Shown here one piece after another: positions 20,676-20,820 of a DNA stretch of 64,000 nt. The notes beneath the pieces were generated by a model that saw only the letters and a list, made by a program, of their open reading frames with translations, was not told the origin of the DNA and did no database searches. A program made the translations under genes and the position numbers. The stretch's first letter is position 1. Every line of letters begins with the position of its first letter. Source of the DNA: a virus; the IMG/VR virus record IMGVR_UViG_3300028029_000006, positions 345,148-409,147 of that record, one strand, 5' to 3'.

Positions 20676-20820
20676 ACTATTATTCGAGTATTAATATCTG
20701 TTTAAAAGATCATTTTAATATGATTGCCTATACCATTTTGGCTATTTGCCCACTAAGTAGGTAAAGCAGGATTCGAACCTGCAATTTTTGCTTGTAAGAT
20801 ATTAACTAATGAATATTAGT
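20676..20820 (-). ncRNA. YrlA-like Y RNA (circularly permuted tRNA domain)
   Basis: Terminal helix, UACAAGC, T arm GCAGG-UUCGAAU-CCUGC, loop-closed acceptor, D arm GCC-AAAAUGGUAUA-GGC, anticodon-like hairpin, CUCGAAUA. Confidence 0.8.

What the first reader, a model, noticed from the sequence alone, without database searches (positions are those of the whole stretch)
20676..20820. YrlA-like circularly permuted tRNA that keeps an anticodon-like arm
The 5'-3' order is T arm, acceptor stem closed by a UUA loop, D arm, then an AUCAU-AUUAAA-AUGAU hairpin, all enclosed by the terminal helix. T-before-D order with a closed acceptor is the hallmark of YrlA Y RNAs. Here the terminal stem joins at the variable-loop position and an anticodon-like arm is retained. 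It is the circular permutation of its neighbours at 20821-20953 and 20096-20243, hinting at how Y RNAs could arise from tRNAs.
Basis: partly seen in the sequence, partly recalled or inferred. Interest (0 to 1): 0.8.

Follow-up and report, generated by a model that had tools for sequence, protein, structure and literature searches.

The report
Permuted tRNA mimic on Ro60-type handle
A 409-kb uncultured phage encodes a 145-base RNA built like a tRNA whose parts are in rotated order and whose ends form a conserved two-helix "handle"; the same design recurs in dozens of huge phages next to a very divergent Ro60-like protein gene, so it is most likely a new version of the known Ro60/Y-RNA particle, not a working tRNA.

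Summary
Window 20676-20820 (minus strand) folds as T arm, acceptor stem closed by UUA, D arm and a 5-bp hairpin with a 6-nt loop. All of this is enclosed by two terminal helices (P1, P2), not one.

A covariance model found 59 distinct copies in huge-phage contigs. 93% of cells pair against 60% in shuffles, and every helix shows compensatory changes.

The element aligns with its two neighbours only after in-silico circular permutation.

The terminal part is a conserved handle: P1, C-A-rich strand, P2 of 8-9 bp, UACAAGCA ... AACC, P2', ACUCG, P1'. The same handle sits inside tRNAs, around permuted tRNAs, around whole tRNAs, or stands empty.

Handle RNAs lie on the same strand as, and a few kb from, a 624-aa protein that Pfam reads only as vWA. 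Its predicted fold matches Ro60 best, both whole and as the N-terminal domain alone.

The element is not a member of Rfam YrlA (17.9 bits against 69), and nothing was found in print. I read it as a YrlA-like partner RNA of a divergent phage Ro60, and as a new variant of a known kind. Binding and function are inferred.

Other agents of this scan noted the same design on other phage DNA.

The parts
20811..20820 (-). P1, 5' strand (ACUAAUAUUC). Its last C pairs with the G of ACUCG.
   Evidence: Fold. P1 is 95.7% paired, and all 9 pairs have changes on both sides in 59 copies.
20807..20810 (-). 5' strand of the conserved internal loop (AUUA; family consensus A-N-Y-C-N after the closing C)
   Evidence: Position counts over 110 handles.
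20797..20806 (-). P2, 5' strand (GUUAAUAUCU)
   Evidence: Fold. P2 is 8-9 bp in most copies and 80.4% paired, with 8 of 9 pairs changed on both sides.
20789..20796 (-). Conserved UACAAGCA between P2 and the T arm
   Evidence: Four of the seven window matches fall in this 1-kb array, all on the minus strand. The positions are near-invariant in A2. Variants are tallied.
20766..20782 (-). T arm (GCAGG UUCGAAU CCUGC)
   Evidence: 100% paired in 59 copies.
20745..20765 (-). Acceptor-like stem of 9 bp with one C.A mismatch, closed by UUA. There is no discriminator base and no CCA.
   Evidence: Sequence, fold, family comparison.
20726..20742 (-). D arm (GCC ... GG ... GGC), preceded by UA at the place of tRNA positions 8-9
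   Evidence: D stem 100% paired.
20709..20724 (-). Anticodon-like arm: 5-bp stem with a 6-nt loop AUUAAA
   Evidence: The arm is 97.9% paired in the family. 30 of 36 relatives have 7-nt loops; this copy is one of two with 6 nt.
20690..20699 (-). P2, 3' strand (AGAUAUUAAU), preceded by the A-rich linker CUUUUAAAC
20686..20689 (-). 3' strand of the conserved internal loop (ACUC of the motif ACUCG)
   Evidence: The detector anchors on CU[C/U][G/A]. Within that, C is at the third place in 106 of 110 handles and G at the fourth in 103 of 110. The preceding base is A in 44 of 102.
20676..20685 (-). P1, 3' strand (GAAUAAUAGU)
20964..20991 (-). Sigma-70-like promoter (TTGACA, 16 nt, TATAGT; 11 of 12) at the head of the RNA array
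   Evidence: This is a consensus match only.
20821..20953 (-). Neighbour of the unpermuted layout: a tRNA-like body with the handle at the variable-loop position and P1 closed by a loop
   Evidence: Sequence; permutation alignment.
20249..20385 (-). Handle split into leader and trailer around a whole cloverleaf (ARAGORN 'tRNA-Phe(AAA)')
   Evidence: model R1 gives 31.6 bits.
20096..20243 (-). Second unpermuted neighbour, ending in GCCA, with the handle at the variable-loop position
20022..20095 (-). Empty handle: P1, loop, P2, CACAAGCA, 20 nt, P2', AACUCA, P1'
19981..20009 (-). Possible terminator of the array: a 7-bp A/U-rich hairpin followed by C and nine U
   Evidence: Read from the sequence. 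The scan did not flag it, because it has only 2 G-C pairs.
25901..27775 (-). Gene for the 624-aa Ro60-like protein: N-terminal beta domain, helical-repeat ring, C-terminal vWA
   Evidence: Pfam sees VWA_2 only. AlphaFold2 model has pLDDT 81. The eleven best Foldseek matches are all Ro60/TROVE entries. The N-terminal 418 aa alone puts three Ro60 chains on top of 48,161.

Best explanation
The element is a non-coding partner RNA of the phage's divergent Ro60-like protein. It is a Y-RNA of the YrlA type, built from a circularly permuted tRNA.

Shown:
- The RNA has a tRNA-like core with T arm, closed acceptor stem, D arm and anticodon-like arm, and the nucleotides of the elbow are kept.
- Its 5' and 3' ends form a conserved two-helix handle that leaves the core at the variable-loop position.
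- The handle family is tightly linked in position and strand to the Ro60-like gene in many huge phages.

Inferred:
- The Ro60-like ring docks on the handle, that is on the internal loop and the UACAAGCA/AACC strands around P2.
- The tRNA-shaped part recruits or distracts a tRNA-recognising factor. Candidates are an exonuclease as in Ro60-Y RNA-PNPase particles, a tRNA-modifying enzyme, or a tRNA-cutting defence nuclease.

This copy cannot be charged, because its acceptor is closed by UUA and it has no CCA. It is unlikely to decode, because its loop has 6 nt. So it acts as a mimic, not as a tRNA.
For: Structure and covariation:
- 59 distinct copies are 93.0% paired against 60.0% in shuffles. 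The covariation score is 0.835 against 0.208, and at most 0.149 when partners are slid (36 copies).
- The single-sequence fold gives the same structure.

Protein:
- The eleven best Foldseek matches of the whole model are Ro60/TROVE entries, over 509-576 alignment columns, E 1.5e-7 to 5e-6.
- The N-terminal domain without vWA puts D. radiodurans Rsr (Z 9.9), phage phiLo Ro60 (Z 9.2) and Xenopus Ro (Z 7.1) on top of 48,161 chains; the next chain scores 6.3.

Linkage:
- The Ro60-like gene is found in 14 or more loci that were fetched by the RNA motif alone.
- Conversely, 35 of 63 loci fetched by the protein alone hold a copy at 64 bits or more. All 49 such hits lie on the gene's strand.
- The handle detector finds 122 handles on the gene's strand and 11 on the opposite strand.
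- In the whole 409-kb genome, handle RNAs occur only in this array.
- The synteny Ro60-like, ThiF-like, RNA, tRNA-Met is kept in GenBank KX853510.1.

Precedent:
- YrlA has the T arm, closed acceptor, D arm order next to Ro60 in bacteria and phages.
- M. smegmatis YrlA is cut by RNase P and receives CCA.
- Yrn1 has a 5-bp 'anticodon' stem with a 6-nt loop. All three points are from PMC4201824.
- The Ro60 of phage phiLo binds RNAs encoded beside its gene (PMC12135203).
- The Rfam YrlA consensus has ACUUG in the 3' strand of its outer internal loop, the place where ACUCG lies here.
Against: - No binding or expression data exist.
- Pfam TROVE does not match the protein or the genome.
- Foldseek with the N-terminal domain alone gives nothing significant; the TROVE entry 9kop ranks 30th with E 0.11.
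- TM-scores are low (0.25-0.44) and rmsd values high, so the Ro60 likeness rests on rank and coverage.
- The Rfam YrlA model scores 17.9 bits against 69.
- The handle shares no clear sequence with the canonical Ro-binding helix.
- One record that is 91% complete (the record of L070) has two copies but no detectable Ro60-like or TROVE gene.
- In the window the gene and the RNA array are 5 kb apart, with a ubiquitin-like operon between them, so another product of that operon could be the partner.
Confidence: 0.6

Rival explanations
1. The handle is an intron-like processing element. Inside a tRNA it would be spliced out. Around a permuted tRNA, leader and trailer would pair, be cut and be ligated into a circular intermediate, as for the permuted tRNA genes of red algae. 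The enzymes would be host or phage enzymes, or the RNA itself.
For: - The three layouts (inside, around a permuted body, around a whole body) are what a splice or circularisation element would give.
- P2 has a nearly constant length of 8-9 bp between two conserved loops, like a molecular ruler.
- AAGCA-like words lie at both cargo borders.
- Some relatives keep NCCA and a spacer, as true permuted tRNA genes do.
Against: - There is no bulge-helix-bulge geometry.
- The genome has no splicing endonuclease and no RtcB.
- No Rfam ribozyme or intron family matches, even at lax thresholds.
- Removing the handle would not leave a normal 4-5 nt variable loop (read).
- Empty handles with 13-40 nt of cargo exist.
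- One handle encloses a complete tRNA-Val ending in GCCA, which needs no splicing.
- This reading does not explain the linkage to the Ro60-like gene.
Confidence: 0.12
2. The handle is a general leader-trailer clamp. It would be a nuclease processing site or a stabilising duplex for RNAs of the array, unrelated to the Ro60-like protein, whose proximity would reflect only a shared place near tRNA arrays.
For: - Handles flank ordinary-looking tRNAs in some phages.
- One near-complete record has copies but no detectable Ro60-like gene.
- The Ro60-like gene often sits beside large tRNA arrays anyway.
Against: - Only the array beside the Ro60-like operon carries handles, in a genome that has several tRNA clusters.
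- Strict same-strand linkage holds in both directions.
- The single-stranded motifs are sequence-conserved, which argues for a specific binding partner rather than a duplex-specific nuclease.
Confidence: 0.13
3. It is a working permuted tRNA gene. The precursor would be opened at the acceptor by RNase P and 3' trimming, receive CCA, be charged, and decode.
For: - The elbow nucleotides, T loop and D loop are tRNA-grade.
- Relatives have a 7-bp acceptor followed by NCCA in 7 of 36 copies by script, 9 by eye, against about 0.6 expected by chance.
- M. smegmatis YrlA is processed in this way (PMC4201824).
Against: In this copy:
- The acceptor is 9 bp and closed by only UUA, with no discriminator base and no CCA.
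- The 'anticodon' loop has 6 nt.
- ARAGORN and the Rfam tRNA model reject it.

In the family, the base at the place of U33 is U in only about two thirds of the loops (read).
Confidence: 0.05
4. It is a decaying by-product of recombination among the tandem tRNA-like genes and has no function of its own.
For: It lies in a tandem array of related units in AT-rich DNA, and its loop and acceptor depart from the family norm.
Against: - The same permuted layout is kept in 59 distinct copies across phages of 29-64% GC, with compensatory changes in every helix.
- This copy scores 99-106 bits, in the upper half of the family.
Confidence: 0.05

Closest known systems
YrlA-type bacterial and phage Y RNAs bound by Ro60/Rsr (Rfam RF02553; Chen et al. 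2014, PMC4201824)
   Same: - A tRNA-like domain in the order T arm, closed acceptor-like stem, D arm.
- The 5' and 3' ends form stacked stems separated by internal loops.
- It is encoded near a Ro60-type gene, with several different RNAs per locus, and phage examples are known.
- Relatives with an encoded NCCA parallel M. smegmatis YrlA, which is cut by RNase P and receives CCA.
- ACU(C/U)G lies in the 3' strand of the outer internal loop in both.
   Different: - The terminal stems leave the core at the variable-loop position instead of replacing the anticodon stem.
- A separate anticodon-like arm is kept.
- The handle has its own conserved words: UACAAGCA, AACC, and a C-A-rich strand.
- The Rfam model gives 17.9 bits against 69.
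- The partner protein has no Pfam TROVE match and carries an extra N-terminal beta domain.
- The same handle also occurs inside tRNAs, around whole tRNAs, and empty.
Deinococcus radiodurans Yrn1 (PMC4201824)
   Same: A Y RNA with a T arm and a possible 'anticodon arm' of 5 bp with a 6-nt loop, as in the window copy.
   Different: - The orientation of its T and D elements differs.
- It has a canonical Ro-binding helix.
- It has no UACAAGCA/ACUCG handle.
Thermus phage phiLo Ro60 with Yrl1 and Yrl2 (PMC12135203; PDB 9KOP, 9L5Y)
   Same: A phage-encoded Ro60 with partner RNAs encoded beside the gene. Its structure is among the best fold matches of the protein here.
   Different: - The phiLo protein is a recognisable Ro60.
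- Its RNAs are stem, bulge, stem RNAs with a CGAA motif, and the paper does not describe them as tRNA-like: the words 'tRNA-like' and 'YrlA' do not occur in it.
Circularly permuted tRNA genes of Cyanidioschyzon merolae, some green algae and Thermofilum pendens (PMC3978253)
   Same: The 3' half comes before the 5' half, and leader and trailer pair.
   Different: - Those genes use a bulge-helix-bulge motif, the splicing endonuclease and a circular intermediate, and they yield working tRNAs.
- Here there is no such motif and no endonuclease gene, the acceptor is closed, and the loop has 6 nt.
Two-piece (permuted) tmRNA genes of alpha-proteobacteria and cyanobacteria (from my own knowledge)
   Same: The gene is permuted so that the T arm and 3' acceptor strand come before the 5' acceptor strand, and it gives a tRNA-like, non-decoding RNA.
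   Different: - tmRNA is chargeable and has a tag reading frame and pseudoknots.
- The Rfam tmRNA model does not match here.

Membership tests
YrlA (Rfam RF02553) | Reaches the family's gathering score with the Rfam covariance model | tested here: not met
   17.9 bits, E 1.1, model positions 29-81 only, against a gathering score of 69. GC-rich relatives give no YrlA hit at E <= 0.1.
YrlA (Rfam RF02553) | tRNA-like domain in the order T arm, closed acceptor-like stem, D arm | tested here: met
   Fold; covariation in 59 copies.
YrlA (Rfam RF02553) | The terminal stem takes the place of the anticodon stem, with no separate anticodon arm | tested here: not met
   P2 leaves the core between the anticodon-like arm and the T arm. 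The anticodon-like arm is 97.9% paired in the family. The YrlA consensus is shown.
YrlA (Rfam RF02553) | Encoded next to a Ro60/TROVE gene | tested here: inconclusive
   Fold level: Ro60 entries are the best matches, and linkage holds in both directions. Sequence level: no Pfam TROVE match.
YrlA (Rfam RF02553) | Bound by Ro60 in cells, and carries tRNA-type modifications | not testable with these tools
   Needs immunoprecipitation and modification mapping.
Circularly permuted tRNA genes (BHB type) | 3' half upstream of the 5' half in one transcription unit | tested here: met
Circularly permuted tRNA genes (BHB type) | Bulge-helix-bulge motif at the leader-trailer junction, and a splicing endonuclease | tested here: not met
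   P2 is 8-9 bp between loops of unequal size. PF01974 is absent from the genome, and so is RtcB. Host enzymes were not examined.
Circularly permuted tRNA genes (BHB type) | Acceptor ends separated by a spacer, so that processing can give a chargeable end; a 7-nt anticodon loop | tested here: not met
   This copy has a UUA loop, no CCA and a 6-nt loop. Some relatives do have NCCA plus a spacer.
tRNA (Rfam RF00005, ARAGORN) | Recognised as a cloverleaf in the standard order | tested here: not met
   ARAGORN does not call it. It does not reach the gathering score; only a 15.6-bit partial match appears.
Ro60/TROVE proteins (the partner gene at 25901-27775) | Helical-repeat ring followed by a vWA domain | tested here: met
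   Model with pLDDT 81. Whole-length Foldseek matches go to Ro60 only. vWA gives Z 14. The N-terminal domain puts Ro60 chains at ranks 1-3, Z 9.9, 9.2 and 7.1, with rmsd 13-15 A over 241-281 aligned residues.
Ro60/TROVE proteins (the partner gene at 25901-27775) | Matches Pfam TROVE (PF05731) | tested here: not met
   (0 of 38 homologues).

The most novel reading that the evidence does not exclude
Huge phages carry a modular kit: one docking handle for a divergent Ro60-like ring is grafted onto tRNA bodies in every circular permutation.

Some copies, those with an encoded NCCA and a spacer or with a free CCA end, would be opened by RNase P and could be charged. The ring would then hold real or near-real tRNAs as well as mimics.

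Together with the ubiquitin-like E1/JAB operon that lies between the gene and the RNAs, this would be a phage system that guards, delivers or sacrifices tRNAs during infection, for example as decoys for tRNA-cutting host defences.

The series from whole tRNA to closed mimic would show how Y RNAs arose from tRNAs.
Probability: 0.2. Interest if true: 0.85.

Novelty: new variant of a known kind. Interest (0 to 1): 0.68.

Why it matters
What Y RNAs do in bacteria and phages, and why they mimic tRNA, is still open.

This family offers a natural series on one handle: whole tRNAs, tRNAs with the handle as an extra arm, permuted tRNAs with an openable acceptor, closed mimics, and empty handles. All lie next to a strongly conserved protein (about 60% identity across more than 1,900 homologues) that standard annotation calls only 'vWA'.

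- It gives testable binding motifs.
- It marks unannotated genes in public records, for example KX853510.1.
- It supports a tRNA origin of Y RNAs.
- tRNA finders miss these genes, so the tRNA counts of huge phages are affected.

Tried and rejected
- **Known RNA families.** The Rfam scan at gathering scores on the window, and at lax E-values on the array and on six GC-rich loci, gave only tRNAs, one group I intron elsewhere, and chance hits. No ribozyme, tmRNA or YrlA family reached its threshold.
- **Self-cleaving ribozyme or intron.** I considered this because of the conserved single strands. It was dropped for lack of any match, and because empty handles and a complete CCA-ended tRNA inside a handle exist.
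- **Splicing genes.** RtcB and the splicing endonuclease are absent from the genome.
- **Pfam TROVE.** Absent from the genome and from 38 homologues.
- **Foldseek with the N-terminal domain alone.** Nothing significant. The VIA re-look at the whole model saw only vWA.
- **Neighbour proteins as anchors.** The 197-aa ORF has no relatives in viral contigs. The 150-aa repeat protein gave unrelated loci.
- **DNA similarity of the array to GenBank phages.** Only the tRNA-Met matched.
- **DNA-level element.** A transposon end of the IS200/IS605 type or an attC-like site was considered because of TTAC and the hairpins. It was dropped because the helices use G.U pairs and are strand-specific.
- **Closed or missing sources.** The review PMC10870794 is not held.
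- **** compared the protein with itself by mistake and says nothing.
- **Literature.** The searches found no description of this handle or of permuted tRNA genes in phages.

Full report
**Setting.** The window is the last 64 kb of a single 409,147-bp virus record of about 32% GC. ARAGORN finds 21 tRNAs in the record, including one with anticodon CUA. The finding lies in a 1.1-kb gene-free stretch (19953-21081) between minus-strand ORFs. All RNA genes in the stretch are on the minus strand.

**The observation.** Read on the minus strand, 20820-20676 has these parts in order:
- P1 5' strand, a short A/U strand, P2 5' strand, then UACAAGCA;
- T arm (GCAGG UUCGAAU CCUGC);
- a 9-bp acceptor-like stem with one C.A mismatch, closed by UUA;
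- UA, then a D arm with GG in its loop;
- AUCAU-AUUAAA-AUGAT... that is, the hairpin AUCAU-AUUAAA-AUGAU;
- an A-rich linker, P2 3' strand, ACUCG, P1 3' strand.

The energy-based fold of the single sequence returns exactly this structure: -30.8 kcal/mol, z = -3.4, and 0 of 200 shuffles as stable. ARAGORN and the Rfam tRNA model do not call it. The one correction is that the 'terminal helix' is two helices with a conserved internal loop between them.

**More than chance, and one unit.**
- The word TACAAGCA occurs four times on the minus strand within this 1-kb array. Over the whole window there are 7 matches on both strands, against 2.3 expected.
- A scan of viral contigs for that word followed by a T arm returned 95 stretches, many from contigs of 200-600 kb. 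Apart from ordinary tRNA-Val(UAC) genes, they hold the same architectures as the window.
- A covariance model built from 15 permuted copies found 36 full-length copies at 68-119 bits. A second round found 59 distinct copies, most of them in loci fetched by a protein and not by the RNA.
- On those 59 copies, 93.0% of cells pair, against 60.0% in column shuffles. The covariation score is 0.835 against 0.208, and at most 0.149 when partners are slid by 1-3 columns.
- Per helix the paired fractions are P1 95.7%, P2 80.4%, T 100%, acceptor 93.2%, D 100% and anticodon-like arm 97.9%. 32 of 35 pairs change on both sides (36 copies).
- The alignment was fitted to the model, which favours the structure. 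The slid controls and the independent single-sequence fold argue that the result is not an artefact.
The two acceptor strands pair with each other across a 3-nt loop, both neighbours are complete, and P1 and P2 enclose the unit.

**Relation to the neighbours.** After cutting the element in its UUA loop and joining its ends in silico, it aligns end to end with 20821-20953 and 20096-20243. The scores are 28.5 and 24.0, against -10.0 and -6.5 unpermuted. Shuffles average about -3 and reach at most 15.5. The neighbours are tRNA-like bodies with open acceptor ends; one ends in GCCA. They carry the same handle at the variable-loop position, with P1 closed by a loop.

**The handle as a family.**
- Consensus: P1 of 6-12 bp ending in a C-G pair; 3-6 unpaired nt, A first; P2 of 8-9 bp; [U/C/A]ACA[A/C/U]GCA; the cargo; an A-rich strand ending in CC; P2'; (N)ACUCG; P1'.
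- In 63 loci fetched only by the protein described below, a simple detector found 122 handles on the gene's strand and 11 on the other strand. 47 of the 63 loci have at least one.
- By cargo, the 110 non-duplicate handles are: 32 around an unpermuted cloverleaf, 27 around a permuted one, 19 inside a tRNA, 15 with short or no cargo, and 17 unclear.
- The window holds all four kinds within 930 bases: 20953-20821, 20820-20676, 20385-20249, 20243-20096 and 20095-20022.
- A sigma-70-like promoter (11 of 12 positions) precedes the array. An A/U-rich hairpin with a U run follows it (read).

**The partner gene.**
I tested that.
- Pfam sees only a vWA domain at residues 416-503. None of 38 homologues matches TROVE, and a genome-wide TROVE search is negative.
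- The protein has more than 1,900 homologues at about 60% identity, many on contigs of 200-450 kb.
- An AlphaFold2 model (38 sequences, pLDDT 81) shows a small beta domain, helical repeats and vWA.
- The eleven best Foldseek matches of the model are all Ro60/TROVE structures: phage phiLo, human, Xenopus and D. radiodurans. They span 509-576 alignment columns, with E 1.5e-7 to 5e-6 and low TM-scores of 0.25-0.44.
- The N-terminal 418 residues were modelled alone (pLDDT 80). Foldseek gave nothing significant with them.
- An exhaustive alignment of the same domain against 48,161 representative chains put three Ro60 structures on top: 2nvo Z 9.9, 9l5y Z 9.2, 1yvp Z 7.1. The next chain scores 6.3. 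The Ro60 matches cover residues 10-413 but have high rmsd.
- I take this as a divergent Ro60-like protein. The support comes from rank and architecture, not from sequence.

**Linkage.**
- The gene is present in 14 or more of the loci that were fetched by the RNA word alone.
- 35 of the 63 protein-anchored loci hold a permuted copy at 64 bits or more. All 49 such hits are on the gene's strand, mostly 2.5-9 kb downstream of the gene or just upstream of it.
- Most other records with copies also encode a close or distant homologue.
- In the 409-kb genome, full-length model hits occur only in this array, although the genome has other tRNA clusters.
- The only GenBank phage record with the protein is KX853510.1. 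It has an unannotated copy of 68-79 bits at 175492-175631, downstream of a ThiF-like gene and next to a tRNA-Met, as in the window.
- Exception: the 392-kb record behind L070, 91% complete, has two copies but no detectable homologue and no TROVE.

**How it most likely works.**
- By analogy with Ro60-Y RNA particles, the Ro60-like ring would dock on the handle and the tRNA-shaped part would engage a tRNA-recognising factor. These steps are inferred.
- What the sequence shows is that this copy cannot be a normal tRNA. Its acceptor is closed by three bases, it has no CCA, and its loop has 6 nt.
- Among 36 relatives, 30 have 7-nt loops. Twelve close the acceptor with loops of five bases or fewer, such as UUCG or GAAA.
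- Seven by script (nine by eye) carry NCCA right after a 7-bp acceptor strand, followed by a spacer that is often a hairpin. Chance would give about 0.6.
- One handle encloses a complete tRNA-Val(CAC) ending in GCCA.
- This range matches what is published for YrlA: M. smegmatis YrlA is cut by RNase P and receives CCA, while Salmonella YrlA is not, and Yrn1 has a 6-nt 'anticodon' loop (PMC4201824).

**Comparison with the known.**
- The YrlA consensus in Rfam has three stacked terminal stems, then T arm, closed stem and D arm, with no anticodon arm.
- Here the terminal stems leave at the variable-loop position and an anticodon-like arm is kept.
- The handle's conserved words differ from YrlA's, except for ACU(C/U)G at the same structural place.
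- The Rfam model gives 17.9 bits. So the element works like a YrlA but is not a member of that family as it is defined.
- Permuted tRNA genes of algae and archaea share only the gene order.
- Phage Ro60 with neighbouring Y-like RNAs is known from mycobacteriophages, CcrColossus, phage G and phiLo. I found no paper on this handle, on this protein family as Ro60-like, or on permuted tRNA genes in phages.
- Other agents of this scan reported the same kind of design on other phage DNA. I did not test those reports.

**Rivals.**
- An intron-like or circularising element is the main alternative. It is weakened by the empty handles, the CCA-ended tRNA inside a handle, the lack of a normal variable loop after excision, the absence of matching enzymes or ribozyme families, and the protein linkage.
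- A general processing clamp is weakened because handles are restricted to the one array beside the operon.
- A working tRNA is excluded for this copy by its anatomy.
- Decay is excluded by the covariation.

**Verdict.** This is a new variant of a known kind. Binding, expression and function remain to be shown.

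Noticed in passing
window 21734-25470 (minus strand): Between the Ro60-like gene and the RNA array lie small ORFs. One is a clear ThiF/E1-like protein (21734-22306, Pfam 1.3e-25). Another gives a weak prokaryotic JAB match (23093-23464, E 1.8e-4). A ThiF-like gene sits at the same place in GenBank KX853510.1. A ubiquitin-like conjugation set may belong to the same system.
   Followed up: partly
window 20545-20660 (minus strand): A tRNA-like gene has a normal D stem (GCUC/GAGC), but its D loop holds an insert of about 45 nt with a G+C-rich hairpin. 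Its anticodon arm is an 8-bp stem with a 6-nt U-rich loop. It has no UACAAGCA handle and is not called by ARAGORN.
   Followed up: no
window 20249-20385 (minus strand): The gene that ARAGORN calls tRNA-Phe(AAA) lies wholly inside a split handle: leader P1 AAGGCAUU and P2 UAAAAUAUU, trailer ACUCG AAUGCCUU. Its acceptor stem has a mismatch and a G.U pair at its end, so it is probably another mimic and not a Phe tRNA.
   Followed up: partly
window 20821-20953 (minus strand): In the unpermuted neighbour a 7-bp hairpin with a UGG loop takes the place of a normal D arm. It also has a G3.U70 pair in its acceptor stem and ends in ACA, not CCA.
   Followed up: no
own genome C1:250663-250734 (outside the window): A tRNA with anticodon CUA, which ARAGORN labels 'Pyl', would read the TAG stop codon. 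The phage may recode TAG in part of its genes.
   Followed up: no
own genome C1: about 214.5, 215.6, 216.7, 218.8, 222.3, 223.1, 235.4, 256.6 and 275.1 kb; window about 38653, 39194 and 48057: A dozen perfect T arms followed by acceptor-like strands are not called as tRNAs by ARAGORN. These are further non-standard tRNA-like genes or tRNAs with inserts. They have no handle by model R1.
   Followed up: partly
L171:20535-20674 = GenBank KX853510.1 175492-175631 (minus strand of the record): An unannotated copy of the permuted tRNA mimic lies in a public record (Virus Rctr197k). The Ro60-like gene of that record is annotated only as a misc_feature, 'similar to conserved hypothetical protein'.
   Followed up: yes
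L070 (record of 391,957 bases, 91% complete): This record has two strong copies of the permuted RNA (about 100 bits with R2) but no detectable homologue of the Ro60-like protein and no Pfam TROVE match. Either the partner lies in the missing part or is too divergent, or the RNA can act without it.
   Followed up: partly
L020:1948-2178: A group I intron (Rfam 76.6 bits) lies in the large tRNA array of a 436-kb phage contig that also carries handle RNAs.
   Followed up: no
window 16305-18467 (minus strand): A 720-aa ORF has an N-terminal kinase-like match (PHROG, 3.8e-11) and C-terminal endolysin or metallopeptidase-like matches. This is an unusual fusion.
   Followed up: no
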